Notes: generated by a model not told the origin, from the letters alone. A stretch of DNA of 64,000 nt from Squalus acanthias (GCA_030390025.1 JASTWF010000033.1:1862001-1926000); one strand, 5' to 3'. Shown: positions 29,758 through 51,480, counted from the stretch's first letter. A program made the numbers and translations.

Positions 29758-29857
29758 GGTAGCATGTTCAGCCATGAACGCATTGAATGGCGGTGCAGGC
29801 TCGAAGGACCGAATGGTCTACTCCTGTACCTATTTTCTATGTTTCTATGTTTCTATG

Positions 29858-32800
29858 CCATGTGTGTATGGAGTTTCACAGTGTATCAGAATCCTGCCGG
29901 GTGAGTATGGAGTGTCACAATGTATCAGGATCCTGCCAGGTGTGTATAGGGTTTTGCAGTGTATCAGGATACTACCAGGTGTGTTTGGGGCTTCACAGTG
30001 TATCAGTATCCTGCCTGGTGTGTATCGGTTTTCAGTGTATCAGGATCCAGCCAGGTGTGTATGGGGTTTCACCGTATATCAGGATCCTGCCAGGTGTGTA
30101 TGGGGTTTCACAGTGTATCAGGATCCTGCCTGGTGTATATGGGGTTTCACAGTGTATTAGGATCCTGCCTGGTGTGTATGGGGTTTCAGTGTATCGGGGT
30201 CCTGCCAGGTGTGTATGGGGTTTCACAGTGTATCAGTATCCTGCCTGGTGTGTATGGGGTTTCGCAGTGTATCAGGATCCTGCCAGGTGTGTATGGGGTT
30301 TCTCAGTGAATCAGGATCCTGCCAGGTGTGTATGGGTTTTCACAGTGTATCACGATCCTGACACGTTTGTATGGGGTTTCACAGTGTACCTGGTTCCTGC
30401 CAGGTGTGTATGAGGTTTCACAGTGTATCAGGATCCTGCCAGGTGTACATGGGGTTTCAATGTATCAGGATCGTGCCAGGTGTTTATCGGGTTTCACAGT
30501 ATATCAGGATCCTGCCAGTTGTGTATGGGGTTTCACAGTGTATCAGGATCCTACCAGGTGTGTATGGGTTTTAACAGTGTTTCAGGATCCTGCCAGGTGT
30601 GTATGGGGTTTTACAGTTTATCAGGATCGTGCCAGGTGTTTATGGGGTTTCAAAGTATATCAGGATCCTGCCAGTTGTGTATGGGGTTTCACAGAGTATC
30701 AGGGTTCTACCAGGGGTGTATGGGGTATCACTGTGTATCGGGATCCTGCCAGGTTTGTATGGGGTTTCACAGTGTATCAGGATCCTGCCAGGTGTGTATG
30801 TGGTTTTACAGTGTATCAGGATCCTGCCAGGTGTGTATGGGGTTTCACAGTGTATCAGGATCCTACCAGGTGTGTATGGGTTTTAACAGTGTTTCAGGAT
30901 CCTGCCAGGTGTATATGGGGTTTTACAGTTTATCAGGATCGTGCCAGGTGTTTATGGGGTTTCAAAGTATATCAGGATCCTGCCAGTTGTGTATGGGGTT
31001 TCACAGAGTATCAGGGTTCTACCAGGGGTGTATGGGGTATCACTGTGTATCAGGATCCTGCCAGGTTTGTATGGGGTTTCACAGTGTATCAGGATCCTGC
31101 CAGGTGTGTATGTGGTTTTACAGTGTATCAGGATCCTGCCAGGTGTGTATGGGGTTGCACAGTGTATCAGGATCCTGCCAGGTGTGTATGTGGTTTCAAA
31201 GTGTATGAGGATCCTGCCAGGTGTGTATGGAGTTTCACAATGTATCAGGATCCTGCCAGATGTGTTTGGGGCTTCACAGTGTATCAGGATCCTGCCTGAT
31301 GTGTATGGGTTTTCAGTGTATCAGGATCCAGCCAGGTGTGTATGGGGTTTCACAGAACATCAGGATCCTGCCAGGTGTGTATGGGGTTTCACAGTGTATA
31401 AGAATCCTGCCTGGTGTATATGGGGTTTCACAGTGTATCAGGATCCTGCCAGGTGTGTATGGGGTTTCTGTATAAAGATCCTGCCTGGTATGTATGGTGT
31501 TTCACATTGTATCAGTATCCTGCCAGGTGTGTATGGGGTTTCACAGTGTATCAGGATCCTGCCAGGTGTGGATGGGGTTTCAGTGTATCGGGGTCCTGCC
31601 AGGTGTGTATGGGGTTTCACAGTTTATCAGTATCCTGCCTGGTGTGTATGGGGTTTCACAGTGTATCAGGATCCTGCCAGGTGTTTATGGGGTTTCAAAG
31701 TATATCAGGATCCTGCCAGTTGTGTATGGGTTTTCACAGTGTATCAGGATACTACCAGGGGTGTATGGGGTATCACAGTGTATCAGGATCCTGCCAGGTG
31801 TGTATGGGGTTTCACAGTGTATCAGGATCCTGCCAGGTGTGTATGGGGTTTCAGTGTATCGGGGTCCTGCCAGGTGTGTATGGGGTTTCACAGTGTATCA
31901 GGATCCTGCCAGGTGTGTATGGGGTTTTACAGTGTATCAGGATCGTGCCAGGTGTTTATGGGGTTTCACAGTGTGTCAGGATCCTGCCAGGTGTGTATGG
32001 GGTTTCACAGTGTATCAGGATCCTGCTTGGTGTGTATGGGGTATCACAGTGTATCAGGATCCTGTCAGGTGTGTATGGGGTTTCACAGTGTATCAGGATC
32101 CTGCCAGGTGTGTATGTGGTTTTACAGTGTATCAGGATCCTGCCAGGTGTGTATGGGGTTGCACAGTGTATCAGGATCCTGCCAGGTGTGTATGTGGTTT
32201 CAAAGTGTATGAGGATCCTGCCAGGTGTGTATGGGGTTTCACAGTGTATCAGGATCCTGCCTGGTGCATATGGGGTTTCACAGTGTATCAGGATCCTGCC
32301 TGGTGTATATGCGGTTTCACAGTGTATCAGGATCCTGCCACGTGTGTATGATGTTTCACAATATATCAGGATCCTGCCAAATGTGTATGGGGGATAACAG
32401 TGTATCATGATCCTGCCAGGTGTGTATGGGGTTTCACAGCGTATCAGGATCTTGCCAGGTTTGTATGGGGTTTCACAGTGTATCAGGATGCAGCCAGGTG
32501 TGTATGGGGTTTCACAGTGTATCAAGATCCTGCCAGGTGTGTATGGGGTTTCACAGTGTATTAGGATCCTGCCAGGTGTGTCTGGGGTTTCACAGTGTAG
32601 CAGGATCCTGCCAGGTGTGTATGGGGTTTTACAGTGTATCAGGATCCTGCCAGGTGTGTATGGGGTTTCACAGTGTATCAGGATCCTGCCAGGTGTGTAT
32701 GAGGTTTCACAGTGTTTCAGGATCCTGCCAGGTGTGTATGGGGTTTTACTGTGTATCAGGATCGTGCCAGGTGTTTATCGGTTTTCACAGTATATCAGGA

Positions 32801-35734
32801 ACCTGACAGTTGTGTATGGGGTTTCACAGTGTATCAGGATCCTACCAGGGGTGTATGGGGTATCACAGTGTATCAGGATCCTGCCAGGTGTGTATGGGGT
32901 TTCACAGTGTATCAGGATCCTGCCAGGTGTGTATGTGGTTTCACAGTGTATCAGGATCCTGCCAGGTGTGTATGGGGTTGCACAGAGTATCAGGATCCTG
33001 CCAGGTGTGTATGTGGTTTCAAAGTGTATGAGGATCCTGCCAGGTGTGTATGGAGTTTCACAATGTATCAGGATCTTGCCAGGTGTGTATAGGGTTTCGC
33101 AGTGTATCAGGATACTGCCAGGTGTGTTTGGGGTTTCACAATGTATCAGGATCCTGCCAGGTGTGTATGGGGTCTAACAGTTTATCAGAATCCTGCCAGG
33201 TATGTATGGGGTTTCACAGTGTAACAGGATCCTGCCAGGTGTGTATGGGGTTTCACAGTATATCAGGATCCTGCCAGGTGTGTATTGGGTTTCACGGTGT
33301 ATCAGGATCCTGCCATGTGTGTATGGGGTTTCACAGTGTATCAGAATCCTGCCAGGTGAGTATGGAGTTTCACAATGTATCAGGATCCTGCCAGGTGTGT
33401 ATAGGGTTTTGCAGTGTATCAGGATACTGCCAGGTGTGTTTGGGGCTTCACAGTGTATCAGGATCCTGCCTGATGTGTATGGGTTTTCTGTGTATCAGGA
33501 TCCAGCCAGGTGTGTATGGGGTTTCACAGTATATCAGGATCCTGCCAGGAGTTTATGGGGTTTCACAGTGTATCAGGATCCTGCCTGGTGTATATGGGGT
33601 TTCACAGTGTATCAGGATCCTGCCTGGTGTGTATGGGGTTTCACAGTGTATCAGGATCCTGCCAGGTGTGTATGGGGTTTCAGTGTATCAGGATCCAGCC
33701 AGGTGTGTATGGGGTTTCACAGTATATCAGGATCCTGCCAGGTATGTATGGGGTTTCTCAGTGAATCAGGATCCAGCCAGGTGTGTATGGGGTTTCACAG
33801 TGTATCGTGATCCTGCCAGGTGTTTATGGGGTTTCAAAGTATATCAGGATCCTGCCAGTTGTGTATGGGGTTTCACAGTGTATCAGGATTCTACCAGGGG
33901 TGTATGGGGTATCACCGTGTATCAGGATCCTGCCAGGTGTGTATGGGGTTTCACAGTGTATCAGGATCCTGCCAGGTGTGTATGTGGTTTTACAGTGTAT
34001 CAGGATCCTGCCAGGTGTGTATGGGGTTGCACAGTGTATCAGGATCCTGCCAGGTGTGTATGAAGTTTCACACTGTATCAGGATCCTGCCAGGTGTGTTT
34101 GGGGCTTCACAGTGTATCAGGATCCTGCCTGATGTGTATGGGTTTTCAGTATATCAGGATCCAGCCAGGTGTGTATGGGGTTTCACAGTATATCAGGATC
34201 CTGTCGGGTGTGTATGGCGTTTCACAGTTTATCAGGATCCTGCCTGGTGTATATGGGGTTTCACAGTGTATCAGGATCCTGCCTGGTGTGTATGGGATTT
34301 CAGAGTGTATCAGGATCCTGCCAGGTGTGTATGGGGTTTCAGTGTATCATGATCCTGCCTGGTATGTATGGTGTTTCACATTGTATCAGGATCCTGCCAG
34401 GTGTGGATGGGGTTTCACAGAGTATCAGCATCCTGCCTGGTGTGTATGGGGTTTCACAGTGTATCAGGATCCTGCCAGGTGTTTATGGGGTTTCAAAGTA
34501 TATCAGGATCCTGCCAGTTGTGTATGGGGTTTCACAGTGTATCAGGATTCTACCAGGGGTGTATGGGGTATCACAGTGTATCAGAATACTGCCAGGTGTG
34601 AATGGGGTTTCACAGTGTATCAGGATCCTGCCAGGTGTGTATGGGGTTTCAGTGTATCGGGGTCCTGCCAGGTGTGTATGGGGTTTCACAGTGTATCAGG
34701 ATCCTGCCAGGTGTGAATGGGGTTTCACAGTGTATCAGGATCCTGCCAGGTGTTTATGTGGTTTCACAGTGTATCACGATCCTGCCAGGTTTGTATGGGG
34801 TTTCACAGTGTACCTGGTTCCTGCCAGGTGTGTATGAGGTTTCACAGTGTATCAGGATCCTGCCAGGTGTGTATGGGGTTTCAGTGTATCAGGATCCAGC
34901 CAGGTGTGTATGGGGTTTCACAGTGTATCAGGATCCTGGCAGGTGTGTATGGGGTTTCACAGTGTATCAGGATCCTGCCAGGTGTGTATGGGGTATCACA
35001 GTGTACCTGGTTCCTGCCAGGTGTGTATGAGGTTTCACAGTGTATCAGGATCCTGCCAGGTGTGTATGGGTTTTAACAGTGTTTCAGGATCCTGCCAGGT
35101 GTGTATGGGGTTTTACAGTTTGTCAGGATCGTGCCAGGTGTTTATGGGGTTTCAAAGTATATCAGGATCCTGCCAGTTGTGTATGGGGTTTCACAGTGTA
35201 TCACGGTTCTACCAGGGGTGTATGGGGTATTACTGTTTATCAGGATACTGCCAGGTTTGTATGGGGTTTCACAATGTATAAGGATCCTGCCAGGTGTGTA
35301 TGTGGTTTTACAGTGTATCAGGATCCTGCCAGGTGTGTATGGGGTTGCACAGTGTATCAGGATCCTGCCAGGTGTGTATGTGGTTTCAAAGTGTATGAGG
35401 ATCCTGCCAGGTGTGTATGGAGTTTCACAATGTATCAGGATCCTGCCAGGTGTGTTTGGGGCTTCACAGTGTATCAGGATCCTGCCTGATGTTTATGGGT
35501 TTTCAGTGTATCAGGATCCTGCCAGGTGTGTATGGGGTTTCACAGTGTATCAGGATCCTGCCAGGTGTGTATGGGGTATCACAGTGTACCTGGTTCCTGC
35601 CAGGTGTGTATGAGGTTTCACAGAGTATCAGGATCCTGCCAGGTGTGTATGGGTTTTAACAGTGTTTCAGGATCCTGCCAGGTGTGTATGGGGTTTTACA
35701 GTTTATCAGAACGTGCCAGGTGTTTATGGGGTTT
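29858..35734 (-). repeat. 39-bp minisatellite, block 5, opposite orientation
   Basis: GTGTGTATGGGGTTTCACAGTGTATCAGGATCCTGCCAG units; 312-bp (8-unit) duplication marked by agggttctaccagggg at 30701 and 31013. Confidence 0.96.
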
Positions 35735-35833
35735 CATAGATACATAGATACATAGAAGATAGGAGCAGGAGTAGGCCATCCGGCCCTTCGAGCCTGCTCC
35801 GCCATTTAATGAGATCATGGCTGATCCTCCAAT

Positions 35834-38701
35834 TCAGTATCCCGTCCCCGCCTTCTCTCTGTAACCCTTAACCCCTTTTGCCTGTAGAAATATATCTAAT
35901 TCCCTCTTAAATATATTTAATGAGCTGGCGTACACTGCCCTCTGTGGCAATGAGTTCCACAGGTTCACCACCCTCTGAGTGAAGAAATTCCCCCTCATTT
36001 CTGTCCTAAATTGTTTAGCCCTTATCCTTAAATGATGTCCTCTAGTTCTGTTCTCACCCGCCAAGGGAAACATTCCTTCTGCATCTAGTCTGTCTAGACC
36101 TGTCAGAATTTTATACACTTCTATGAGGTCCCCTCTCAATCTTCTAAACTCCAGTGTGTACATCCCTAAACTACATAGTCTCTCCTCATAGGTCAATCCC
36201 GCCATTCCTGGTATCAGCCTGGTGAATCGCCGCTGCACCCCCTCCATGGCAAGAACATCTTTCCTCAGATGAGGCGACCAAAACTGTACACAGTACTCGA
36301 GGTGTGGTCTCACCAGTGCCCTGTACAGCTGCAGCAAGGTATCCCTGTTCCTGTATTCCAACCCTTTTGCTATGAAGGCCAGCATACCGTTTGCCTTCTT
36401 GATCGCCTGTTGCACCTGCATGCTCGCCTTCAGTGACTGGTGTACAAGAACACCCAGGTCTCTCTGTACTTCCCCCTCTCCCAATTTATTGCCATTTAAA
36501 TAATAATTTGCCCTCCCGTTCCTGCACCCAAGGTGGATAACTTCGCACTTGTCCACATTATAGTGCATCTGCCATTTATCCGCCCAATCACCCAGTCTGT
36601 CCAAATCGCTCTGGAGCTTCCTGGTCTCCTCCTCTGAGCCCACCCCCCCTCCTAGTTTAGTGTCGTCTGCAAATTTGGAAATGCTGCATCCGACTCCCTG
36701 ATCCAGGTCATTAATGTAAATTGTGAACAGCTGGGGACCCAGGACAGATCCCTGTGGTACCCCACTTGTTACTGCCTGCCATTCAGAAAATGAGCCGTTT
36801 ATTCCAACTCTCTGTTTTCTATCTGACAGCCAGTTCTCTATCCACGTCAATACTTTCCCCTTTATCCCATGAGCTTCAATTTTCCATGCTAATCTTTTAT
36901 GTGGGACCTTATCGAAGGCCTTTTGGAAGTCCAGGTACACCACATCTACTGGCTCTCCCCCATCTATTTTACCAGTTACTCCCTCAAAAAATTCCAATAG
37001 ATTAGTCAAGCACGATTTACCCTTTGTAAATCCATGTTGACTCTGTCCTATCCTGTCCCCATTTGCTAAGTGCTCCGCTATTTCATCCTTAATGATGGAC
37101 TCCAGCATTTTGCCCACAACTGATGTAAGGCTTACAGGTCTGTAATTACCTGCTTTTTCCCTACTCCCCTTTTTGAATAGTGGGGTAACGTTAGCTACCC
37201 TCCAATCCATGGGCACTGTTCCCGAGTCTAATGAATTCTGAAAAATCATACTTAGTGCATCCGCTATCTCTAGGGCCACCTCCTTCAGCACCCTAGGATG
37301 CATGTTATCAGGCCCTGGGGATTTGTCCGCCTTCAATCCCTTTAGCTTCCTTAACACCATATCCTTAGAGATATTGACGTGCGTCAGTTCCTCCTTTGCA
37401 AATGTCCCTATTTTTCCCGATATCCCAGGGAGGTTTTTTGTGTCTTCCTTCGTAAAGACTGACCCAAAGTATGCATTTATTTGGTCTGCCATTTCTTTAT
37501 TTCCCGTTATATATTCCCCCGTATCTGACTGCAATGGGCCAACTTTGGTTTTCACCAGTCTTTTCCTCTTGATATACTTATAAAAGCTTTTGGAGTTAGT
37601 TTTTATATTTTCCGCCAGCTTGCTTTCGTAAGCTATTTTGCCCCTCTTGATTAAGCCCTTTGTCCTCCTTTGCTCTATCTTAAACTGTTCCCAATCTTCC
37701 GCTCTGGCGCTTTTTTTGGCTATTTTATACGCCCTATCTTTGGATTTTATGCTGTCTCTAATTTCCCCTGTTATCCACGGTTGAGTCACCTTTTTAGATT
37801 TCCTTTTATGCCAGATTGGTATAAACAATTTTTGCAATTTTGTCATTCTATCTTTAAATGCTTGCCATTGTTTATCTACCTCCAGTCCTCCCAGGAACGT
37901 TGTCCAATCAGACCTACTCAGTTCCCGTCTAATGGCATCATAATTCCCCTTGTTTAAATTCAGGACCTTAGTATCTGAGTCAATTTCTTCGCTCTCCATT
38001 TCGAGTGAGAAATCGATCATGTTATGATCGCTCTGACCCAAGGGTCCCCGTACAACAAGATTACTAATTAGTCCCTTCTCATTGCACAGTACCCAGTCCA
38101 ATATAGCCTGTTCCCGAGTTGGTTCCTCGACATATTGATCCAGATAACCATCCCTTAAACACTCAAGGAATTCCTCCTCCTCATTATTTTTACTGATTAG
38201 GCTATTCCAATCTATATGTAAGTTAAAGTCACCTATGATGACAGCTGTGCTCTTATTGCACGCTTCTCTAATTTCCCTCGTGATGCCCTCCCCAACCTCT
38301 ATTTTACTATTTGGAGGCCTATATACCACTCCTATTAATGTTTTTCGCCCCTCGCTATTTCTTAGCTCCACCCATATAGATTCTGTATTAACTGAGTTAA
38401 TATCCTTCCTTTCAATTGCATTTATCCCTTCTTTTACCAGCAATGCTACCCCTCCTCCCTTTCTTTTTTGTCGATCCTTCCTAAATACTGAATACCCCTG
38501 TATGTTAAGCTCCCAGCCCTGCTCACCCTGCAACCATGTTTCCGTAATCCCAATTAGATCATAATTATTAACCTCTATTTCCACAGCTAATTCATCTACC
38601 TTGTTCCTGATGCTTCTCGCATTAAGGTATAAAACCCTCAGGCTTTTTTTATGCTCACATTTTTTATGAATTGGTTTGGCCCTTTGTTTTTTGTTCCTCA
38701 C
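35834..38701 (-). CDS. CR1 ORF2p: APE endonuclease plus reverse transcriptase, uninterrupted 955 codons, no AUG before the endonuclease domain
   Basis: [51 protein letters not shown]. The track start is GTG. Confidence 0.93.
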   Translation of the reverse strand: MRNKKQRAKPIHKKCEHKKSLRVLYLNARSIRNKVDELAVEIEVNNYDLIGITETWLQGEQGWELNIQGYSVFRKDRQKRKGGGVALLVKEGINAIERKDINSVNTESIWVELRNSEGRKTLIGVVYRPPNSKIEVGEGITREIREACNKSTAVIIGDFNLHIDWNSLISKNNEEEEFLECLRDGYLDQYVEEPTREQAILDWVLCNEKGLISNLVVRGPLGQSDHNMIDFSLEMESEEIDSDTKVLNLNKGNYDAIRRELSRSDWTTFLGGLEVDKQWQAFKDRMTKLQKLFIPIWHKRKSKKVTQPWITGEIRDSIKSKDRAYKIAKKSARAEDWEQFKIEQRRTKGLIKRGKIAYESKLAENIKTNSKSFYKYIKRKRLVKTKVGPLQSDTGEYITGNKEMADQINAYFGSVFTKEDTKNLPGISGKIGTFAKEELTHVNISKDMVLRKLKGLKADKSPGPDNMHPRVLKEVALEIADALSMIFQNSLDSGTVPMDWRVANVTPLFKKGSREKAGNYRPVSLTSVVGKMLESIIKDEIAEHLANGDRIGQSQHGFTKGKSCLTNLLEFFEGVTGKIDGGEPVDVVYLDFQKAFDKVPHKRLAWKIEAHGIKGKVLTWIENWLSDRKQRVGINGSFSEWQAVTSGVPQGSVLGPQLFTIYINDLDQGVGCSISKFADDTKLGGGVGSEEETRKLQSDLDRLGDWADKWQMHYNVDKCEVIHLGCRNGRANYYLNGNKLGEGEVQRDLGVLVHQSLKASMQVQQAIKKANGMLAFIAKGLEYRNRDTLLQLYRALVRPHLEYCVQFWSPHLRKDVLAMEGVQRRFTRLIPGMAGLTYEERLCSLGMYTLEFRRLRGDLIEVYKILTGLDRLDAEGMFPLAGENRTRGHHLRIRAKQFRTEMRGNFFTQRVVNLWNSLPQRAVYASSLNIFKRELDIFLQAKGVKGYREKAGTGY

Positions 38702-38775
38702 CCTTTTACCATTTATTTCTGTCTGCCTTTCACTTTCCTCTATTTCACTACATAGGTTTCAAGCCCCCTGCCATA

Positions 38776-39723
38776 CTAGTTTAAATGCTCCCGAACTGCT
38801 TTATCAAAAATTACCCCGAGAACATCAGTTCCATCTTTGCACAGGTGTAGACCGTCCCTTTTGTATAGGTCACACCTACCACAAAACTGGTTCCAATGCC
38901 TCAAAAATTTAAAACCCTCCCTCTTACACCACTGCTCAAGCCACGTATTTAGCCTAACTATCCTGTTCTCTGTACTCTTACTAGCACGTGGCACTGGTAG
39001 TAATCCAGAGATTACTACCTTCGAGGTCCTACTTTTTAGCTTGGCTCCTAACTCCCTAAATTCTACTTGTAGGACCTCTTCCCTTTTTTTAGCTACGTCG
39101 TTGGTACCAACATGTATCACGACAACTGGCTGTTCCCCCTCCCCCTCCAGAATGTTCTGCACCCGCGCCGAGACATCCTTCACCCTTGCACCAGGGAGGC
39201 AACATACCATCCTGGAGTCTCGGTCGCGACCACAGTAACCCCTATCTATTCCCCTTACAATCGAATCCCCTATTACTATAGCCCTGCCACTCTTTTTCCC
39301 TCCCTTCTTTGCAACAGAGCCAGTCATGGTGCCATGAGCCTGGCTGCTGGTGCCTTCCCCCGATGAGTCATCCCCCCCGACAACAGCACCTAAGGCGGTG
39401 AACCTGTTGCTAAGGGAGACAACCCCAGGGGATTTCTGCACTACCTTCCTGCCCTTGCTCTGCCTTTTGGTCACCCATGTACTATCTACGCTGGCCTTAA
39501 CCTGCGGTGTGACCAACTCACTAAATGTGTTATCCACAACCCTCTCAGAATCGTGGATGCTCCAAAGTGAGTCCATCCGCAGCTCAAGGGCCGTCATGCG
39601 GTCCCACATGAGCTGCAGCTGGACACACTTCCCGCACACATGGTTGTCAGGGACACAGGAAGCTTCCCTGATTTCCCACATGTTACAGGAGGAGCATGAC
39701 ACAGGTCCGAGATCTACTGCCAT
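38776..39723 (-). CDS. CR1 ORF1p (zinc finger plus SGNH esterase), 315 aa
   Basis: CSSCNMW...CGKC; IGDSIVR, HVGTND, DGLHL; clearly homologous to ORF1 at 25828. Confidence 0.93.
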   Translation of the reverse strand: MAVDLGPVSCSSCNMWEIREASCVPDNHVCGKCVQLQLMWDRMTALELRMDSLWSIHDSERVVDNTFSELVTPQVKASVDSTWVTKRQSKGRKVVQKSPGVVSLSNRFTALGAVVGGDDSSGEGTSSQAHGTMTGSVAKKGGKKSGRAIVIGDSIVRGIDRGYCGRDRDSRMVCCLPGARVKDVSARVQNILEGEGEQPVVVIHVGTNDVAKKREEVLQVEFRELGAKLKSRTSKVVISGLLPVPRASKSTENRIVRLNTWLEQWCKREGFKFLRHWNQFCGRCDLYKRDGLHLCKDGTDVLGVIFDKAVREHLN

Positions 39724-40174
39724 GACTTAACCCTTATATTAATTTTTAATTTTCTAGTTTTAGTTTATTTATTGACTTTTGTTTTCCCGAAGCTTACTTA
39801 GACCAATGTATACTGTACTCCTCTTATTCCTTTTTAAACTAACCAAATCCCACTAGTTTTAGTTTTACTTTCTAGGAAGGTTTGAGGAAAGTACTTACCA
39901 GTTAGTCTTACCTCCCTGGTCTTTCGCTGACTTCCCGGTCTTGTGTCCCCTTGGTCCTACGCCGACTTCCCGCTCCTCCCGGTTCCTGCCCTGCTGAAAA
40001 GAAACTGAGACCAAAAAATTTGTGACCTCTGTTTTTAGACTGCTAAAAGACTAGTAGGTTAGAGGAGGAGGGCGGGTGGGGGTTCCTACTCTGTAGGAAC
40101 TCGGGTTTAAGCCACCACCCTCCTTAAATGCTGTTCACCTGGGTGCTTCCCACCTGGTCCGCTTCCGGTCTCGT

Positions 40175-43100
40175 CTCTCCCGACACTGGCCTCTGCAAAA
40201 AAAGCCCGCGAAAGCGAGTTTAAATACTCACTGTGCTGCTGCTCTCTCCGCTCCCGACACTGGCCTCTGCAAAAAAAGCCCGCGAAAGCGAGTTTAAATA
40301 CTCACTGTGCTGCTGCTCTCTCCGCTCCCGACACTGGCCTCTGCAAAAAAAGCCCGCGAAAGCGAGTTTAAATACTCACTGTGCTGCTGCTCTCTCCGCT
40401 CCCGACACTGGCCTCTGCAAAAAAAGCCCACGAAAGCGAGTTTAAATACTCACTGTGCTGCTGCTCTCTCCGCTCCCGACACTGGCCTCTGCAAAAAAAG
40501 CCCGCGAAAGTGAGTTTAAATACTCACTGTGCTGCTGCTCTCTCCGCTCCCGACACTGGCCTCTGCAAAAAAAGCCCGCGAAAGCGAGTTTAAATACTCA
40601 CTGTGCTGCTGCTCTCTCCGCTCCCGACACTGGCCTCTGCAAAAAAAGCCCGCGAAAGTGAGTTTAAATACTCACTGTGCTGCTGCTCTCTCCGCTCCCG
40701 ACACTGGCCTCTGCAAAAAAAGCCCGCGAAAGCGAGTTTAAATACTCACTGTGCTGCTGCTCTCTCCGCTCCCGACACTGGCCTCTGCAAAAAAAGCCCG
40801 CGAAAGCGAGTTTAAATACTCACTGTGCTGCTGCTCTCTCCGCTCCCGACACTGGCCTCTGCAAAAAAAGCCCGCGAAAGCGAGTTTAAATACTCACTGT
40901 GCTGCTGCTCTCTCCGCTCCCGACACTGGCCTCTGCAAAAAAAGCCCGCGAAAGTGAGTTTAAATACTCACGGTGCTGCTGCTCTCTCCGCTCCCGACAC
41001 TGGCCTCTGCAAAAAAAGCCCGCGAAAGCGAGTTTAAATACTCACTGTGCTGCTGCTCTCTCCGCTCCCGACACTGGCCTCTGCAAAAAAAGCCCGCGAA
41101 AGTGAGTTTAAATACTCACTGTGCTGCTGCTCTCTCCGCTCCCGACACTGGGCCTCTGCAAAAAAAGCCCACGAAAGTGAGTTTAAATACTCACTGTGCT
41201 GCTGCTCTCTCCGCTCCCGACACTGGCCTCTGCAAAAAAAGCCCGCGAAAGCGAGTTTAAATACTCACTGTGCTGCTGCTCTCTCCGCTCCCGACACTGG
41301 CCTCTGCAAAAAAAGCCCGCGAAAGCGAGTTTAAATACTCACTGTGCTGCTGCTCTCTCCGCTCCCGACACTGGGCTCTGCAAAAAAAGCCCACGAAAGC
41401 GAGTTTAAATACTCACTGTGCTGCTGCTCTCTCCGCTCCCGACACTGGCCTCTGCAAAAAAAGCCCGCGAAAGTGAGTTTAAATACTCACTGTGCTGCTG
41501 CTCTCTCCGCTCCCGACACTGGCCTCTGCAAAAAAAGCCCGCGAAAGCGAGTTTAAATACTCACTGTGCTGCTGCTCTCTCCGCTCCCGACACTGGCCTC
41601 TGCAAAAAAAGCCCGCGAAAGCGAGTTTAAATACTCACTGTGCTGCTGCTCTCTCCGCTCCCGACACTGGCCTCTGCAAAAAAAGCCCGCGAAAGCGAGT
41701 TTAAATACTCACTGTGCTGCTGCTCTCTCCGCTCCCGACACTGGCCTCTGCAAAAAAAGCCCGCGAAAGTGAGTTTAAATACTCACGGTGCTGCTGCTCT
41801 CTCCGCTCCCGACACTGGCCTCTGCAAAAAAAGCCCGCGAAAGCGAGTTTAAATACTCACTGTGCTGCTGCTCTCTCCGCTCCCGACACTGGCCTCTGCA
41901 AAAAAAGCCCGCGAAAGTGAGTTTAAATACTCACTGTGCTGCTGCTCTCTCCGCTCCCGACACTGGCCTCTGCAAAAAAAGCCCGCGAAAGTGAGTTTAA
42001 ATACTCACTGTGCTGCTGCTCTCTCCGCTCCCGACACTGGCCTCTGCAAAAAAAGCCCGCGAAAGTGAGTTTAAATACTCACTGTGCTGCTGCTCTCTCC
42101 GCTCCCGACACTGGCCTCTGCAAAAAAAGCCCGCGAAAGCGAGTTTAAATACTCACTGTGCTGCTGCTCTCTCCGCTCCCGACACTGGCCTCTGCAAAAA
42201 AAGCCCGCGAAAGTGAGTTTAAATACTCACTGTGCTGCTGCTCTCTCCGCTCCCGACACTGGCCTCTGCAAAAAAAGCCCGCGAAAGTGAGTTTAAATAC
42301 TCACTGTGCTGCTGCTCTCTCCGCTCCCGACACTGGCCTCTGCAAAAAAAGCCCGCGAAAGTGAGTTTAAATACTCACTGTGCTGCTGCTCTCTCCGCTC
42401 CCGACACTGGCCTCTGCAAAAAAAGCCCGCGAAAGCGAGTTTAAATACTCACTGTGCTGCTGCTCTCTCCGCTCCCGACACTGGCCTCTGCAAAAAAAGC
42501 CCGCGAAAGTGAGTTTAAATACTCACTGTGCTGCTGCTCTCTCCGCTCCCGACACTGGCCTCTGCAAAAAAAGCCCGCGAAAGTGAGTTTAAATACTCAC
42601 TGTGCTGCTGCTCTCTCCGCTCCCGACACTGGCCTCTGCAAAAAAAGCCCGCGAAAGTGAGTTTAAATACTCACTGTGCTGCTGCTCTCTCCGCTCCCGA
42701 CACTGGCCTCTGCAAAAAAAGCCCGCGAAAGTGAGTTTAAATACTCACTGTGCTGCTGCTCTCTCCGCTCCCGACACTGGCCTCTGCAAAAAAAGCCCGC
42801 GAAAGTGAGTTTAAATACTCACTGTGCTGCTGCTCTCTCCGCTCCCGACACTGGCCTCTGCAAAAAAAGCCCGCGAAAGTGAGTTTAAATACTCACTGTG
42901 CTGCTGCTCTCTCCGCTCCCGACACTGGCCTCTGCAAAAAAAGCCCGCGAAAGTGAGTTTAAATACTCACTGTGCTGCTGCTCTCTCCGCTCCCGACACT
43001 GGCCTCTGCAAAAAAAGCCCGCGAAAGCGAGTTTAAATACTCACTGTGCTGCTGCTCTCTCCGCTCCCGACACTGGCCTCTGCAAAAAAAGCCCGCGAAA

Positions 43101-46100
43101 GCGAGTTTAAATACTCACTGTGCTGCTGCTCTCTCCGCTCCCGACACTGGCCTCTGCAAAAAAAGCCCGCGAAAGCGAGTTTAAATACTCACTGTGCTGC
43201 TGCTCTCTCCGCTCCCGACACTGGCCTCTGCAAAAAAAGCCCGCGAAAGCGAGTTTAAATACTCACTGTGCTGCTGCTCTCTCCGCTCCCGACACTGGCC
43301 TCTGCAAAAAAAGCCCGCGAAAGCGAGTTTAAATACTCACTGTGCTGCTGCTCTCTCCGCTCCCGACACTGGCCTCTGCAAAAAAAGCCCGCGAAAGTGA
43401 GTTTAAATACTCACTGTGCTGCTGCTCTCTCCGCTCCCGACACTGGCCTCTGCAAAAAAAGCCCGCGAAAGCGAGTTTAAATACTCACTGTGCTGCTGCT
43501 CTCTCCGCTCCCGACACTGGCCTCTGCAAAAAAAGCCCGCGAAAGTGAGTTTAAATACTCACTGTGCTGCTGCTCTCTCCGCTCCCGACACTGGCCTCTG
43601 CAAAAAAAGCCCGCGAAAGTGAGTTTAAATACTCACTGTGCTGCTGCTCTCTCCGCTCCCGACACTGGCCTCTGCAAAAAAAGCCCGCGAAAGTGAGTTT
43701 AAATACTCACTGTGCTGCTGCTCTCTCCGCTCCCGACACTGGCCTCTGCAAAAAAAGCCCGCGAAAGTGAGTTTAAATACTCACTGTGCTGCTGCTCTCT
43801 CCGCTCCCGACACTGGCCTCTGCAAAAAAAGCCCGCGAAAGTGAGTTTAAATACTCACTGTGCTGCTGCTCTCTCCGCTCCCGACACTGGCCTCTGCAAA
43901 AAAAGCCCGCGAAAGTGAGTTTAAATACTCACTGTGCTGCTGCTCTCTCCGCTCCCGACACTGGCCTCTGCAAAAAAAGCCCGCGAAAGTGAGTTTAAAT
44001 ACTCACTGTGCTGCTGCTCTCTCCGCTCCCGACACTGGGCCTCTGCAAAAAAAGCCCGCGAAAGTGAGTTTAACTACTCACTGTGCTGCTGCTCTCTCCG
44101 CTCCCGACACTGGCCTCTGCAAAAAAAGCCCGCGAAAGTGAGTTTAAATACTCACTGTGCTGCTGCTCTCTCCGCTCCCGACACTGGCCTCTGCAAAAAA
44201 AGCCCGCGAAAGTGAGTTTAAATACTCACTGTGCTGCTGCTCTCTCCGCTCCCGACACTGGCCTCTGCAAAAAAAGCCCGCGAAAGCGAGTTTAAATACT
44301 CACTGTGCTGCTGCTCTCTCCGCTCCCGACACTGGCCTCTGCAAAAAAAAGCCCGCGAAAGTGAGTTTAAATACTCACTGTGCTGCTGCTCTCTCCGCTC
44401 CCGACACTGGCCTCTGCAAAAAAAGCCCGCGAAAGTGAGTTTAAATACTCACTGTGCTGCTGCTCTCGTCCGCTCCCGACACTGGCCTCTGCAAAAAAAG
44501 CCCGCGAAAGTGAGTTTAAATACTCACTGTGCTGCTGCTCTCTCCGCTCCCGACACTGGCCTCTGCAAAAAAAGCCCGCGAAAGTGAGTTTAAATACTCA
44601 CTGTGCTGCTGCTCTCTCCGCTCCCGACACTGGCCTCTGCAAAAAAAGCCCGCGAAAGCGAGTTTAAATACTCACTGTGCTGCTGCTCTCTCCGCTCCCG
44701 ACACTGGCCTCTGCAAAAAAAAGCCCGCGAAAGTGAGTTTAAATACTCACTGTGCTGCTGCTCTCTCCGCTCCCGACACTGGCCTCTGCAAAAAAAGCCC
44801 GCGAAAGTGAGTTTAAATACTCACTGTGCTGCTGCTCTCTCCGCTCCCGACACTGGCCTCTGCAAAAAAAGCCCGCGAAAGTGAGTTTAAATACTCACTG
44901 TGCTGCTGCTCTCTCCGCTCCCGACACTGGCCTCTGCAAAAAAAGCCCGCGAAAGTGAGTTTAAATACTCACTGTGCTGCTGCTCTCTCCGCTCCCGACA
45001 CTGGCCTCTGCAAAAAAAGCCCGCGAAAGTGAGTTTAAATACTCACTGTGCTGCTGCTGCTCTCTCCGCTCCCGACACTGGCCTCTGCAAAAAAAGCCCG
45101 CGAAAGTGAGTTTAAATACTCACTGTGCTGCTGCTCTCTCCGCTCCCGACACTGGCCTCTGCAAAAAAAGCCCGCGAAAGTGAGTTTAAATACTCACTGT
45201 GCTGCTGCTCTCTCCGCTCCCGACACTGGCCTCTGCAAAAAAAGCCCGCGAAAGCGAGTTTAAATACTCACTGTGCTGCTGCTCTCTCCGCTCCCGACAC
45301 TGGCCTCTGCAAAAAAAGCCCGCGAAAGTGAGTTTAAATACTCACTGTGCTGCTGCTCTCTCCGCTCCCGACACTGGCCTCTGCAAAAAAAGCCCGCGAA
45401 AGCGAGTTTAAATACTCACTGTGCTGCTGCTCTCTCCGCTCCCGACACTGGCCTCTGCAAAAAAAGCCCGCGAAAGTGAGTTTAAATACTCACTGTGCTG
45501 CTGCTCTCTCCGCTCCCGACACTGGCCTCTGCAAAAAAAGCCCGCGAAAGCGAGTTTAAATACTCACTGTGCTGCTGCTCTCGTCCTCTCCCGACACTGG
45601 CCTCTGCAAAAAAAGCCCGCGAAAGCGAGTTTAAATACTCACTGTGCTGCTGCTCTCTCCGCTCCCGACACTGGGCCTCTGCAAAAAAAGCCCGCGAAAG
45701 CGAGTTTAAATACTCACTGTGCTGCTGCTCTCTCCGCTCCCGACACTGGCCTCTGCAAAAAAAGCCCGCGAAAGTGAGTTTAAATACTCACTGTGCTGCT
45801 GCTCTCTCCGCTCCCGACACTGGCCTCTGCAAAAAAAGCCCGCGAAAGTGAGTTTAAATACTCACTGTGCTGCTGCTCTCTCCGCTCCCGACACTGGCCT
45901 CTGCAAAAAAAGCCCGCGAAAGTGAGTTTAAATACTCACTGTGCTGCTGCTCTCTCCGCTCCCGACACTGGCCTCTGCAAAAAAAGCCCGCGAAAGCGAG
46001 TTTAAATACTCACTGTGCTGCTGCTCTCTCCGCTCCCGACACTGGCCTCTGCAAAAAAAAGCCCGCGAAAGTGAGTTTAAATACTCACTGTGCTGCTGCT

Positions 46101-48950
46101 CTCTCCGCTCCCGACACTGGCCTCTGCAAAAAAAGCCCGCGAAAGCGAGTTTAAATACTCACTGTGCTGCTGCTCTCTCCGCTCCCGACACTGGCCTCTG
46201 CAAAAAAAGCCCGCGAAAGTGAGTTTAAATACTCACTGTGCTGCTGCTCTCTCCGCTCCCGACACTGGCCTCTGCAAAAAAAGCCCGCGAAAGTGAGTTT
46301 AAATACTCACTGTGCTGCTGCTCTCTCCGCTCCCGACACTGGCCTCTGCAAAAAAAGCCCGCGAAAGTGAGTTTAAATACTCACTGTGCTGCTGCTCTCT
46401 CCGCTCCCGACACTGGCCTCTGCAAAAAAAGCCCGCGAAAGCGAGTTTAAATACTCACTGTGCTGCTGCTCTCTCCGCTCCCGACACTGGCCTCTGCAAA
46501 AAAAGCCCGCGAAAGTGAGTTTAAATACTCACTGTGCTGCTGCTCTCTCCGCTCCCGACACTGGCCTCTGCAAAAAAAGCCCGCGAAAGTGAGTTTAAAT
46601 ACTCACTGTGCTGCTGCTCTCTCCGCTCCCGACACTGGCCTCTGCAAAAAAAGCCCGCGAAAGTGAGTTTAAATACTCACTGTGCTGCTGCTCTCTCCGC
46701 TCCCGACACTGGCCTCTGCAAAAAAAAGCCCGCGAAAGTGAGTTTAAATACTCACTGTGCTGCTGCTCTCTCCGCTCCCGACACTGGCCTCTGCAAAAAA
46801 AGCCCGCGAAAGTGAGTTTAAATACTCACTGTGCTGCTGCTCTCTCCGCTCCCGACACTGGCCTCTGCAAAAAAAGCCCGCGAAAGCGAGTTTAAATACT
46901 CACTGTGCTGCTGCTCTCTCCGCTCCCGACACTGGCCTCTGCAAAAAAAGCCCGCGAAAGTGAGTTTAAATACTCACTGTGCTGCTGCTCTCTCCGCTCC
47001 CGACACTGGCCTCTGCAAAAAAAAGCCCGCGAAAGTGAGTTTAAATACTCACTGTGCTGCTGCTGCTCTCTCCGCTCCCGACACTGGGCTCTGCAAAAAA
47101 AGCCCACGAAAGCGAGTTTAAATACTCACTGTGCTGCTGCTCTCGTCCTCTCCCGACACTGGCCTCTGCAAAAAAAGCCCGCGAAAGTGAGTTTAAATAC
47201 TCACTGTGCTGCTGCTCTCTCCGCTCCCGACACTGGCCTCTGCAAAAAAAGCCCGCGAAAGTGAGTTTAAATACTCACTGTGCTGCTGCTCTCTCCGCTC
47301 CCGACACTGGCCTCTGCAAAAAAAGCCCGCGAAAGTGAGTTTAAATACTCACTGTGCTGCTGCTCTCTCCGCTCCCGACACTGGCCTCTGCAAAAAAAGC
47401 CCGCGAAAGTGAGTTTAAATACTCACTGTGCTGCTGCTCTCTCCGCTCCCGACACTGGCCTCTGCAAAAAAAGCCCGCGAAAGTGAGTTTAAATACTCAC
47501 TGTGCTGCTGCTCTCTCCGCTCCCGACACTGGCCTCTGCAAAAAAAGCCCGCGAAAGTGAGTTTAAATACTCACTGTGCTGCTGCTCTCTCCGCTCCCGA
47601 CACTGGCCTCTGCAAAAAAAGCCCGCGAAAGTGAGTTTAAATACTCACTGTGCTGCTGCTCTCTCCGCTCCCGACACTGGCCTCTGCAAAAAAAGCCCGC
47701 GAAAGTGAGTTTAAATACTCACTGTGCTGCTGCTGCTCTCTCCGCTCCCGACACTGGCCTCTGCAAAAAAAAGCCCGCGAAAGTGAGTTTAAGTACTCAC
47801 TGTGCTGCTGCTCTCTCCGCTCCCGACACTGGCCTCTGCAAAAAAAGCCCGCGAAAGTGAGTTTAAATACTCACTGTGCTGCTGCTCTCTCCGCTCCCGA
47901 CACTGGCCTCTGCAAAAAAAGCCCGCGAAAGTGAGTTTAAATACTCACTGTGCTGCTGCTGCTCTCTCCGCTCCCGACACTGGCCTCTGCAAAAAAAGCC
48001 CGCGAAAGCGAGTTTAAATACTCACTGTGCTGCTGCTCTCTCCGCTCCCGACACTGGCCTCTGCAAAAAAAGCCCGCGAAAGTGAGTTTAAATACTCACT
48101 GTGCTGCTGCTCTCTCCGCTCCCGACACTGGCCTCTGCAAAAAAAGCCCGCGAAAGTGAGTTTAAATACTCACTGTGCTGCTGCTCTCGTCCGCTCCCGA
48201 CACTGGCCTCTGCAAAAAAAGCCCGCGAAAGCGAGTTTAAATACTCACTGTGCTGCTGCTCTCTCCGCTCCCGACACTGGCCTCTGCAAAAAAAGCCCGC
48301 GAAAGCGAGTTTAAATACTCACTGTGCTGCTGCTCTCTCCGCTCCCGACACTGGCCTCTGCAAAAAAAGCCCGCGAAAGTGAGTTTAAATACTCACTGTG
48401 CTGCTGCTCTCTCCGCTCCCGACACTGGCCTCTGCAAAAAAAGCCCGCGAAAGTGAGTTTAAATACTCACTGTGCTGCTGCTCTCTCCGCTCCCGACACT
48501 GGCCTCTGCAAAAAAAGCCCGCGAAAGTGAGTTTAAATACTCACTGTGCTGCTGCTCTCTCCGCTCCCGACACTGGCCTCTGCAAAAAAAGCCCGCGAAA
48601 GTGAATTTAAATACTCACTGTGCTGCTGCTCTCTCCGCTCCCGACACTGGCCTCTGCAAAAAAAAGCCCGCGAAAGTGAATTTAAATACTCACTGTGCTG
48701 CTGCTCTCTCCGCTCCCGACACTGGCCTCTGCAAAAAAAAGCCCGCGAAAGTGAATTTAAATACTCACTGTGCTGCTGCTCTCTCCGCTCCCGACACTGG
48801 CCTCTGCAAAAAAAAGCCCGCGAAAGTGAGTTTAAATACTCACTGTGCTGCTGCTCTCTCCGCTCCCGACACTGCCCTCTGCAAAAAAAGCCCGCGAAAG
48901 TGAGTTCAAATACTCACTGTGCTGCTGCTCTCTCTGCTCCCGACATTGGC
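40175..48950 (-). repeat. ~118 x 74-bp highly homogeneous tandem array at the 5' end of CR1-A3
   Basis: Unit on + is CTCTCTCCGCTCCCGACACTGGCCTCTGCAAAAAAAGCCCGCGAAAG(T/C)GAGTTTAAATACTCACTGTGCTGCTG; ORF starts recur every 74 bp. Confidence 0.98.
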
Positions 48951-49522
48951 AGCAAAATCGATCCTGTCCTTGAATTCATCCAAACCATCGAATATAAACA
49001 GCAATCCCTCTGGGTTCTTCCAGAGCTCTCCAAGAATATTCCCGAAGTAAGGATATAAAATGAGTATCAGGTTCCACAGGGTTATTCTACAGTTGATAGC
49101 GTTCAAATCCCTGAATTTAAAACTGAAAACAACTTGAAATTGTGGGTATATTTTCCCAGTGGCCCAGTCATGAACAATCTTTTGTACCATTGTTGTTTTT
49201 CCAATCCCCGGGACTCCGCTCACTGCTCCTGAACTCCCAGAATTGGATTTTCTCCGTGAAAAACAGCTCTGGAACAATTGATCAGTTCGGATTTTTTCCA
49301 GCTCTCTCTTGAGATCTTTCTCTCTCCACTCTTCATGGTCTCGGCCTCTTGCCAGCAGTTCATGTTCTACAAGTGTCCGATCTCGAACAGTAGAAATGAC
49401 CGTTAGCTCAGCGTATCGATCAACCAGCTGGAAAATCTTAACCTTCTCCTTTATTAGGATAGTGTTCACTCTCAGTGTTTCAGTTTGTACCCGGAGTGTT
49501 TCCTTGTGTTTCTGTTGAACAT
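48950..49522 (-). pseudogene. NLR-family (NLRC3/NLRP-like) gene: 5' part of the large NACHT exon, truncated just after Walker B
   Basis: Acceptor ttctatctgttctaattgaAG at 49523-49524; DVQQKHKETL..., Walker A GVPGIGKTT, FSFKFRDLN, Walker B LLFIFDGLDE, then a switch into array sequence. Confidence 0.9.
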
Positions 49523-49913
49523 CTTCAATTAGAACAGATAGAAAGTGGTTCTCAGTATTAGTTGTATTGACAAAAAACAACTTCTCAATACTATTTCACT
49601 ATTCAGTAAAATATTGCAAGATTTAATTCACAGCTTCAATAGAGAGGCATGCAGAAATTAAAACTCAGTTAATGCAAACTTCGCTGGAAAGTGAACAATG
49701 GCCAAAATGTTTTCAAATTCTCACTTAATTCTAATATTCACTGAACATGGAGATTTCTGAGAGTGATATTTTCCCTCTGATAGTTAATGCCATCAGCGCT
49801 GCATTATACTGTAGATATCTCATTACAAATCCACACAAGACCCTGGTTATACAACAGTAGTGGATCTCATTGATCAATCTTCCAAGGGAGTAGCTAGAAG
49901 AAACGAGAAGGAT

Positions 49914-51480
49914 AAGGACAGATTGTGAATGGTCAGGAGTCCCACTGTCATTGTATCAGACCGTGGGAAGGTTATCTGGATAATTGTGTGTACTGGGTGA
50001 GGGACAGACTGGGAATGGCCAGGAGTCACACTGTCATTGTATCAGACCGTGGGATGGTTATCTGGAGCACTGTGTGTACTGGGAGAGGGACAGACTGGGA
50101 ATGGCCAGGATTCCCACTGTCATTGTATCAGACCGTGGAATGGTTATCTGGAGCACTGTGTGTACTGGGAGAGGGACAGACTGTGAATGGCCAGGATTCC
50201 CCTGTCAATGTATCAGACCGTGGGATGGTTATCTGGAGGATTGTGTGTACTGGGTGAGAGAGAGACTGTGAATGGTCAGGAGTCCCACTGTCATTGTATC
50301 AGAACGTGGGAAGGTTATCTGGAGCATTGTGTGTACTGGTAGAGGGACAGACTGTGAATGGCCAGGAGTCCCACTGTCATTGTATCAGACCGTGGGAAGG
50401 TTATCTGGAGGATTGTGTGTACTGGGAGAGGGACAGACTGTGAATGGTCACTAGTACCACTGTCACTGTATCAGACCGTGGGATGGTTATCTGGAGGATT
50501 GTGTGCACTGGGAGAGGGACAGACTGTGAATGGCCACTAGTCCCACTGTCATTGTATCAGACCGTGGGATGGTTATCTGGAGGATTGTGTATACTGGGAG
50601 AGGGACAGACTGTGAATGGCCAGGATTCCCCTGTCATTGTATCAGACCGTGGGATGGTTATCTGGAGGATTGTGTGTACTGGGAGAGGGACAGACTGTGA
50701 ATGGCCAGGAGTCCCCTGTCATTGTATCAGACCGTGGGAAGGTTATCTGGAGCATTGTGTGTACTGGGAGAAGGACAGACTGTGAATGGCCACTAGTCCA
50801 ACTGTCATTGTATCAGACCGTGGGATGGTTATCTGGAGCATTGTGTGTACTGGGAGAGGGACAGACTGTGAATGGCCAGGAGTCCCACTATCATTGTATC
50901 AGACCGTGGGATGGTTATCAGGAGGCTTGTGTGTACTGGGAGTGGGACAGACTGTGAATGGTCACTAGTCCCCCTGTCATTGTATCAGACCGTGGGATGG
51001 TTATCTGGAGGATTGTGTGTACTGGGAGAGGGACAGACTGTGAACGGCCAGGAGTCCCACTGTCATTGTATCAGACCGTGGGATGGTTATCTGGAGGATT
51101 GTGTGTACTGGGAGTGGGACAGACTGTGAATGGCCACTAGTCCCCCTGTCATTGTATCAGACCGTGGGATGGTTATCTGGAGGATTGTGTGTACTGGGAG
51201 AGGGACAGACTGTGAACGGCCAGGAGTCCCACTGTCATTGTATCAGACCGTGGGAAGGTTATCTGCAGGATTGTGTGTACTGGGAGAGGGACAGACTGTG
51301 AATGGCCACTAGTCCCACTGTCATTGTATCACACCGTGGGATGGTTATCTGGAGGATTGTGTGTACTGGGAGAGGGACAGACTCGAAATGGTCAGAAGGT
51401 CCACTCTTCCTGTATCAGACCGTGAGCATGTTAGCTGCGGTATTGTGCGAACTGGGTGTGAAACAGACTAAGTTGTCAGA
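49914..51480 (+). repeat. 86-bp minisatellite, ~18 copies, probably intronic to the NLR gene
   Basis: Unit GGGACAGACTGTGAATGGCCAGGAGTCCCACTGTCATTGTATCAGACCGTGGGATGGTTATCTGGAGGATTGTGTGTACTGGGAGA; ORF starts recur at 86-bp offsets. Confidence 0.95.

What the first reader, a model, noticed from the sequence alone, without database searches (positions are those of the whole stretch)
40170..48950. Full-length CR1 capped by an ~8.8-kb array of 74-bp monomers, twice the length of the element
Seen: the CR1-A3 5' UTR runs without a break into ~118 near-identical units. The junction unit (tctcgtctctcccgacac) resembles rare internal variants (ctctcgtcc.ctcccgacac at ~44465, 45580, 47143, 48186), suggesting the unit is the element's own 5' terminus. 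Units are CpG-rich (4-5 CpG per unit) and carry TATTTAAA and TTTCGCGG on the sense strand. Known: rodent L1s have tandem 5' promoter monomers, typically a handful. Inference: a monomer-type promoter in a CR1 that expanded into a new satellite, i.e. satellite birth from a LINE promoter.
Basis: partly seen in the sequence, partly recalled or inferred. Interest (0 to 1): 0.72.

Follow-up and report, generated by a model that had tools for sequence, protein, structure and literature searches.

The report
Giant repeat heading a shark LINE
A young shark jumping gene (a CR1 LINE) begins with a short tandem repeat that looks like a stack of small promoters, as in mouse L1, and in this one copy the stack is 118 units long, twice the length of the element; promoter activity is not yet shown.

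Summary
Observation confirmed. There are 118 units of 74 bp (40187-48950, 98% matched) directly 5' of a young esterase-ORF1 CR1 of 4.45 kb.

The unit is not private to this locus. It occurs in all 3 covered runs (of 4 laid; three organisms). Contigs cross unit-to-unit boundaries in two. In one run a contig bridges the unique 5' UTR and 32 nt of a unit variant. The junction letters also occur inside tandem units, so the unit is most likely the family's own 5' repeat.

Each sense-strand unit has a TATA-like box 32 nt before an initiator-like site (114 of 118 units; 1 of 10,000 shuffles). No transcription data exist.

Against a simple story: the flanks do not match (broken NLR exon 5', 39-bp satellite 3', no target duplication). 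The usual proximal variant unit is missing here. Unit-to-UTR depth ratios run from about 1 to 24, so free or shared arrays are not excluded. ORF2's frame has an early stop.

Best reading: an L1-like monomer array in a CR1, over-expanded by unequal exchange at a rearranged locus. Satellite 'birth' is unproven. The scan had not noted this sequence before.

The parts
40187..48950 (-). Array of 118 units of 74 bp (74-78). Each has a TATA-like box at unit position 35, an E2F-like TTTCGCGG, and an initiator-like site at position 67; also a GTGAGT donor-like and a pyrimidine-CAG acceptor-like motif
40164..40186 (-). Junction: the start of a variant ('type B') unit that runs into the unique UTR; its first 10 nt are shared with the array consensus
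   Evidence: (X1 record 4 with table 5c; X5 loose end at 40169)
39724..40163 (-). Unique 5' UTR (tether-like). No ATG; acceptor-like tract ending at 39994/39991; donor-like sites at 39911 and 39898; not detectably a degenerate unit
38776..39723 (-). ORF1, 315 aa, GDSL/SGNH esterase type; closest named relatives are from elasmobranchs
35834..38758 (-). ORF2 frame, 974 aa stop to stop, endonuclease plus RT; preceded by an in-frame TGA at 38761-38759 that the second CR1 family in the window lacks
35735..35833 (-). 3' UTR and octamer-repeat tail, ending in the 39-bp satellite
48945..49595 (-). 5' flank: a shark NLR NACHT exon broken just after the Walker B region, same strand as the CR1; the rest of the gene is absent from the window; breakpoint within about 48944-48950 in a short stretch alike in both sequences
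29856..35736 (.). 3' flank: 39-bp satellite array, unrelated to the 5' flank

Best explanation
The 74-bp unit is the tandem 5' repeat of a young shark CR1 family, working like the monomers of mouse L1: [units]n, then a unique tether, then ORF1. (Shown in one run, indirectly in two more.) Each unit most likely holds a small Pol II core promoter, a TATA-like box 32 nt before an initiator-like site, so a transcript that starts in one unit loses that unit's TATA box but carries all downstream units, and the new copy keeps a promoter. (Inferred from sequence only.) Loss of units at each round would be offset by DNA-level unequal exchange or slippage. At this locus that process ran on to 118 units, recently and in many small steps. 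(Inferred from 0.2% divergence outside one dimorphic site, scattered shared variants and no higher-order period.) The locus is also rearranged: an array whose far end sits in a broken NLR exon is joined to a CR1 body whose tail sits in a 39-bp satellite, probably by exchange within units or by a large deletion, and the usual proximal variant unit was overwritten. This copy probably cannot make ORF2. Odds by step: unit is part of the CR1 5' end about 0.8; promoter function about 0.5; 118 units is a local outlier about 0.6.
For:: X4 record 14 (243 nt, depth 14.1) spans 39984-40218, bridging the UTR and 32 nt of a unit variant; X4 record 12 (39652-40005) overlaps it and reaches ORF1. X4 record 15 and X1 record 8 cross a unit-to-unit boundary (28 letters inside the stretch on the short side, with unit-like loose letters beyond). 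X1 record 4 with table 5c gives a 74-period repeat whose unit carries the junction letters 40164-40186; the X5 loose end at 40169 runs from junction letters back into a unit; in X5, the deepest run, unit-to-UTR depth is about 1 (0.94-1.49), far from 118. TATA-like plus initiator-like at 28-33 nt spacing in 114 of 118 units on the sense strand and 0 on the antisense strand; 1 of 5,000 and 1 of 10,000 dinucleotide shuffles, 53 of 10,000 mononucleotide shuffles; no other satellite of the window has it in more than 3 units. CpG o/e 0.88; 19 substitutions in 118 units outside position 46; rare variants recur in far-apart units; longest repeated run of unit types is 9 (85 of 500 shuffles reach it); 99.4% and 99.1% identity to two truncated siblings, so the family is young. 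Precedent: mouse L1 monomers are promoters and the proximal monomer differs from distal ones (PMC9022269).
Against: Only one listed contig in one run bridges unit and UTR with at least 31 letters on both sides; the table showed 24 of 1,279 pieces. In X1 the UTR contig ends at 40142 and no link is shown. Unit-to-UTR depth is 18-24 in X1 and 3-10 in X4, so long arrays may be common, or units may be shared or free; the tool warns that these depths are no copy number. An X1 loose end at 40200 joins the unit core to a different downstream sequence. The unit next to the UTR in X4 (14.1 of 14.1 depth) and X5 (2,234 of 2,449 depth at 40187) differs from the one in this window. 5' ends do not clearly cluster at the predicted start: this array begins 4-10 nt after it, but an X1 array begins at unit position 35 (1 of 2). 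The only raw RNA run gave 0 reads (no test). The TATA and initiator definitions were chosen after seeing the unit. No target-site duplication, and the flanks are unrelated.
Confidence: 0.58

Rival explanations
1. The 74-mer is already an independent, dispersed satellite or minisatellite family, related to the CR1's proximal unit or shared among several LINE families. One of its arrays, sitting in a broken NLR gene, was joined to this CR1 by homologous exchange in the shared 10 nt. Nothing was born at this locus.
For: Unrelated flanks and no target duplication. The array consensus runs right up to the shared 10 nt, whereas X4 and X5 have a different unit there. Unit excess of 18-24-fold in X1. 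An X1 contig joins the core to another downstream sequence, and X1 record 8 is a diverged array (10 other letters in 90) with an unrelated flank. Two other CR1-derived arrays in this genome were judged by earlier agents to be abundant satellites (e1-7790172, e1-7790274; not checked by me).
Against: Unit depth about equals UTR depth in X5. Homology to the UTR-adjacent unit in X4 still ties the unit to the CR1 5' end. Orientation and TATA-initiator polarity point into the element. No other copy in the 64-kb satellite-rich window.
Confidence: 0.22
2. The unit is part of the CR1 5' end but acts in splicing, not as a promoter. Its GTGAGT donor, CTCAC branch-like motif and pyrimidine-CAG acceptor let upstream host transcripts or the element's own RNA be spliced onto the acceptor in the unique UTR.
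For: Donor and acceptor motifs together occur in 0.8% of 5,000 shuffles. The variants seen in other runs keep GTGAGT and a pyrimidine-rich CAG while the rest varies (read by eye from loose ends). The UTR has its own acceptor and donors. Mouse L1spa has predicted cryptic donors in monomers and acceptors in M1 and the tether (PMC9022269 Discussion). X4 depth steps from 40 to 14 near 40005.
Against: The 39-nt donor-to-acceptor distance inside a unit is shorter than usual vertebrate introns (own knowledge). No splice joint was reported in any run (table 5). A donor-like motif is also on the antisense strand, as one arm of a palindrome. The same conserved letters fit the TATA-initiator reading.
Confidence: 0.1
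3. The array is real but its length is an assembly over-expansion.
For: Units are 98% alike; 9 units differ by one T in a homopolymer; the window has a 200-N gap elsewhere. No long reads could be laid on the array.
Against: No long duplicated block of unit types (longest 9; 85 of 500 shuffles reach it), flat autocorrelation, a gradient of the position-46 variant (17%, 30%, 27%, 61% by quarter; 2 of 10,000 shuffles), and distinct edge units. The extra-T variant also occurs in X1 and X5 contigs.
Confidence: 0.06
4. The array is a chain of repeated site-specific insertions of a tiny non-coding element in front of the CR1 promoter, like the Tx1 and partner chains noted elsewhere in this genome.
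For: About 14 nt of the unit appear at both ends of the array.
Against: The unit has no tail or other SINE feature that I could see; 118 near-identical units with scattered shared variants fit recombination better; any tandem array can show such an end overlap.
Confidence: 0.04

Closest known systems
Mouse and rat L1 5' UTR monomer arrays (PMC9022269: passages and whole Discussion; PMC5381506: passages)
   Same: Tandem CpG-rich units at the LINE 5' end, a unique tether before ORF1, variable unit number, and a proximal unit that differs from distal ones.
   Different: Different clade (CR1, esterase ORF1). Units are 74 bp against about 200 bp (mouse) and 650 bp (rat). 118 units here, whereas young mouse L1s average 3-4 and only 7 of 5,765 loci exceed 10. 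A TATA-like box here; mouse Tf has a putative YY1 site. Mouse promoter activity is shown, this is not.
CR1-group elements with repeating subunits near the 5' UTR (PMC13343379, Fig. 4 legend; section 15 read whole)
   Same: Tandem subunits near the 5' UTR in vertebrate CR1-group LINEs.
   Different: Described for some ORF1-less elements only, 1-5 subunits of 100-500 bp. This element has ORF1, 74-bp units and 118 copies. Supplements not read.
LINE-derived satellites: chicken HinfI (SCR1) and Cen repeats from CR1, cetacean common satellite from L1 3' end, PROsat from L1 ORF2 (tables and passages in PMC9659126, PMC6947457; primary papers not seen)
   Same: A long tandem array homologous to part of a LINE.
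   Different: Those listed derive from 3' UTR or ORF2 where a region is given; no LINE 5'-promoter source appeared in the passages I saw. They are established satellite families; this is one array still attached to its element.
Dictyostelium TRE5-A A-module (PMC3159450, passages)
   Same: A discrete 5' module with promoter activity in a non-LTR element.
   Different: 200 bp; that it occurs in tandem is my recall and was not in the passages seen.

Membership tests
Canonical CR1 LINE (ORF1+) | Esterase-type ORF1 | tested here: met
   PF13472, E 1.8e-11; elasmobranch relatives at 50-70%
Canonical CR1 LINE (ORF1+) | ORF2 with AP endonuclease and RT | tested here: met
   PF14529, PF03372, PF00078
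Canonical CR1 LINE (ORF1+) | 3' octamer-repeat tail, no poly(A) | tested here: met
Canonical CR1 LINE (ORF1+) | RT phylogeny within the canonical CR1 clade; subfamily label CR1-A3 | not tested
   No tree built; no repeat library held
Single intact TPRT insertion | 5' and 3' flanks are the two halves of one target site | tested here: not met
   NLR exon 5', 39-bp satellite 3'; no downstream NLR sequence in the window
L1-type 5' monomer promoter | Tandem units joined to ORF1 by a unique tether in other copies of the family | tested here: met
   X4 records 12 and 14 (link), X4 record 15 and X1 record 8 (tandem); direct bridge in 1 of 3 covered runs
L1-type 5' monomer promoter | Proximal unit differs from distal units | tested here: inconclusive
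   True in X4 and X5 contigs, not in this copy
L1-type 5' monomer promoter | 5' ends of copies cluster at one position of the unit | tested here: inconclusive
   1 of 2 array ends lies near the predicted start
L1-type 5' monomer promoter | Units drive transcription | not testable with these tools
   The raw RNA run X21 gave 0 reads; motif spacing only
TE-derived satellite DNA family | Long homogeneous head-to-tail array homologous to part of a TE | tested here: met
TE-derived satellite DNA family | Arrays spread to other loci independent of the parent element | tested here: inconclusive
   No genome held; depth ratios about 1 to 24

The most novel reading that the evidence does not exclude
Shark CR1s keep their promoter through a stack of ordinary TATA-plus-initiator core promoters: each round of retrotransposition spends the outermost unit, and recombination in the DNA rebuilds the stack. 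Runaway rebuilding yields arrays of over 100 CpG-rich promoters, so this locus would show a LINE promoter turning into satellite DNA while still attached to its element. It would be a solution to 5' promoter loss that arose independently of rodent L1.
Probability: 0.3. Interest if true: 0.72.

Novelty: new variant of a known kind. Interest (0 to 1): 0.5.

Why it matters
CR1 5' ends are poorly defined because most copies are truncated (PMC4316615, passage), yet CR1-group elements make up 22-34% of shark and ray genomes (PMC13343379, passage). A 74-bp unit with TATA-initiator spacing gives a concrete, cheap-to-test candidate for a CR1 promoter. The 118-unit array is about ten times beyond the tail of the mouse L1 distribution and offers a place to study how monomer arrays regrow and whether they seed satellites. 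If the unit proves to be a free satellite joined by recombination, the finding is one more TE-related satellite.

Tried and rejected
No whole genome was held, so the genome-wide linkage count is open. Rfam gave 3 matches at E 2.4-4.7, all far below gathering scores; no ribozyme. The last unit plus UTR folds no better than shuffles (z -1.54; 11 of 100 shuffles as good). The idea that the first 75-90 nt of the unique UTR is a decayed unit failed (624-1,227 of 2,000 shuffles score as well; best local match reached by 64 of 500). The idea that 35736-52937 is one 17-kb insertion carrying NLR pre-mRNA rests on an 11-nt overlap of satellite phase; two other CR1 insertions in the same satellite (one sibling, one of the second family) are blunt or overlap by 2 nt, and a third sibling also has unmatched flanks, so I do not support it. 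Higher-order periodicity, as rolling-circle amplification would leave, was not seen. Searches for related 5' ends found nothing useful: metagenomes (none; two loci at 32% identity, of which L001 1-1200 was read by eye and showed no such array), viral contigs, GTDB genomes (four bacterial esterases), plasmids. Runs X18-X20 (small share) and the other 16 unlaid runs of 23 are no evidence. X21 gave 0 reads, which is no test. Earlier scan notes by sequence or look-alike gave nothing. Ten literature searches listed no paper on 5' tandem monomers in shark CR1; the library lacks most subscription papers and Repbase, and no supplements were read.

Full report
1. What is in the sequence. TRF finds an array at 40177-48950, period 74, 118.2 copies, 98% matches. 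Read on the minus strand, the element's sense strand, it splits into 118 full units and a 10-nt partial unit. Two variants that differ at unit position 46 account for 59 and 34 units. Outside that position there are 19 substitutions in 118 units, 0.2%. Units hold 3-5 CpG, with o/e 0.88 against 0.10-0.23 for the window's 39-, 22- and 86-bp repeats. The unit core occurs nowhere else in the window (118 of 118 matches inside the array).

2. The element. Downstream lie a unique UTR of about 460 nt without ATG, a 315-aa ORF1 with a GDSL esterase, and a 974-aa ORF2 frame with endonuclease and RT, then an octamer-repeat tail. The body is 4,452 bp, so the array is 1.97 times as long. ORF1's closest named relatives are from sharks and rays. 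Two truncated siblings in the window are 99.4% and 99.1% identical, so the family is young. ORF1 ends in TTTAAAC plus stop, the slippery motif noted in an earlier scan note (e1-8041403). In this copy the ORF2 frame has a TGA as the ninth codon from that site, which the second CR1 family in the window lacks, so this copy probably cannot make ORF2. The label CR1-A3 could not be checked.

3. Is the unit the element's own 5' end? No genome was held. The run search listed 23 runs, 17 holding at least half of the sampled words of ORF1, UTR and one unit, in several coded organisms. I laid 4 of the 23 on 39391-40290. X21, the only raw RNA run, gave 0 reads and is no test. X1, X4 and X5 (three organisms, three studies; one may be the window's own source) cover all 30 bins. 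In X4, record 14 spans 39984-40218 and so bridges the UTR and 32 nt of a unit; record 12 overlaps it and reaches ORF1. That unit is a variant, with several differences near its 3' end, and X5 shows a different letter at 40187 in 2,234 of 2,449 depth. X4 record 15 and X1 record 8 cross a unit-to-unit boundary. X1 record 4 with table 5c describes a 74-period repeat whose unit contains the junction letters 40164-40186, and an X5 loose end at 40169 runs from those letters back into a unit. Limits: only 24 of 1,279 pieces and 16 of 118 loose ends were shown, the direct bridge is one contig in one run, and in X1 the UTR contig stops at 40142.

4. How many units are usual? Summed contig depths give unit-to-UTR ratios of 0.9-1.5 in X5, 3-10 in X4 and 18-24 in X1. 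The tool warns that these are no copy numbers. None approaches 118, but X1 leaves room for long arrays or for units shared with other elements. X1 also has a loose end at 40200 joining the core to another downstream sequence, and a diverged array with an unrelated 5' flank.

5. What the unit may do. On the sense strand a TATA-like box starts at position 35 and an initiator-like site (BBCABW, consensus from own knowledge) has its A at position 67, 32 nt later. This pairing is in 114 of 118 units on the sense strand and in none on the antisense strand. It arises in 1 of 10,000 dinucleotide shuffles and 53 of 10,000 mononucleotide shuffles, in at most 3 units of any other satellite in the window, and 3 times in 1.9 kb of unique flank read on both strands. 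An E2F-like site lies between them (3% of shuffles). The motifs were chosen after seeing the unit, so this is a lead. A stack of such promoters would solve the problem that a TATA box lies upstream of its start: a transcript from one unit carries all downstream units. This array's far end lies 4-10 nt past the predicted start, but the X1 array begins at position 35, so 1 of 2 ends fits. The same letters also read as a splice donor, branch-like motif and acceptor (0.8% of shuffles), but no splice joint was seen.

6. How the array grew. Rare variants recur in far-apart units, for example the three-base insertion in units 14, 17, 26 and 53. The longest repeated run of unit types is 9, reached by 85 of 500 shuffles, and autocorrelation is flat. 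The position-46 variant rises toward the CR1 (17, 30, 27, 61% by quarter; 2 of 10,000 shuffles). The outermost unit carries four private changes, of which one may be NLR-derived. This fits many small unequal exchanges or conversions. It fits block duplication by an assembler or rolling-circle growth poorly. Long reads are still needed.

7. The locus is rearranged. The far end of the array abuts a NACHT exon broken after the Walker B region; 115 of 120 relatives matched there and continue for a median of 616 residues, and no downstream NLR sequence is in the window. The CR1 tail ends in the 39-bp satellite. There is no target duplication. With the missing proximal variant unit, this suggests exchange inside units between two loci, or a large deletion. 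It keeps alive the rival that an existing array was joined to this CR1.

8. Comparison with what is known. Mouse L1 5' UTRs are tandem monomers plus tether; young families average 3-4 monomers, 7 of 5,765 loci exceed 10, and M1 differs from M2 (PMC9022269; passages and whole Discussion). [quoted passage not shown] A 2026 survey notes 1-5 subunits of 100-500 bp near the 5' UTR in some ORF1-less CR1-group elements (PMC13343379; abstract, section 15, passages). Reviews list LINE-derived satellites from 3' UTR or ORF2 (PMC9659126, PMC6947457; passages). CR1 5' UTRs are hard to define (PMC4316615; passages). Hebe has a 72-bp repeat in its 3' UTR (PMC2861651; passages), and the TRE5-A A-module is a promoter (PMC3159450; passages). 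Ten searches listed no report of 5' monomers in an ORF1-bearing or shark CR1; subscription papers, Repbase and supplements were not seen.

9. Verdict. The unit most likely is the family's own 5' tandem repeat and works like an L1 monomer; that it is a promoter is inferred; that this locus records a satellite's birth is unproven. New variant of a known kind; interest 0.5.

Noticed in passing
window 38759-38790: ORF1 ends in TTTAAAC plus stop in both CR1 families of the window; the main copy has an in-frame TGA nine codons on in the ORF2 frame, the second family does not.
   Followed up: partly
window 8380-10430, 12264-13871, 15651-17427, 25806-29857, 35735: Five CR1 pieces of two families (about 75% alike) sit in or beside the 39-bp satellite at different phases; the two with satellite on both sides have blunt or 2-nt-overlap junctions, and 3' ends often share a few bases with the target.
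   Followed up: partly
window 40066-40124: A long predicted hairpin with an inner 8-bp stem in the unique UTR; no Rfam match, and the whole UTR is not unusually stable.
   Followed up: partly
window 39984-40005: In run X4 (guessed RNA) contig depth steps from 40 to 14 next to the acceptor-like tract of the UTR; no joint was reported, so splicing is not shown.
   Followed up: no
window 23254-25594: A reverse-transcriptase ORF with a Penelope-like look (by recall, not scanned) on the minus strand, cut by the 200-N gap at 25595-25794; a second-family CR1 starts right after the gap.
   Followed up: no
window 1-23253 and 29856-64000: The 22-bp and 39-bp satellites lie in roughly mirror order and mostly opposite orientation on the two sides of the gap.
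   Followed up: no
window 49916-51424: An 86-bp repeat of 17.6 copies upstream of the NLR exon, probably intronic.
   Followed up: no
P0010: A protein 57% identical to this shark CR1 ORF1 is filed under Pseudomonas aeruginosa on a 4.2-kb contig, probably contamination.
   Followed up: no
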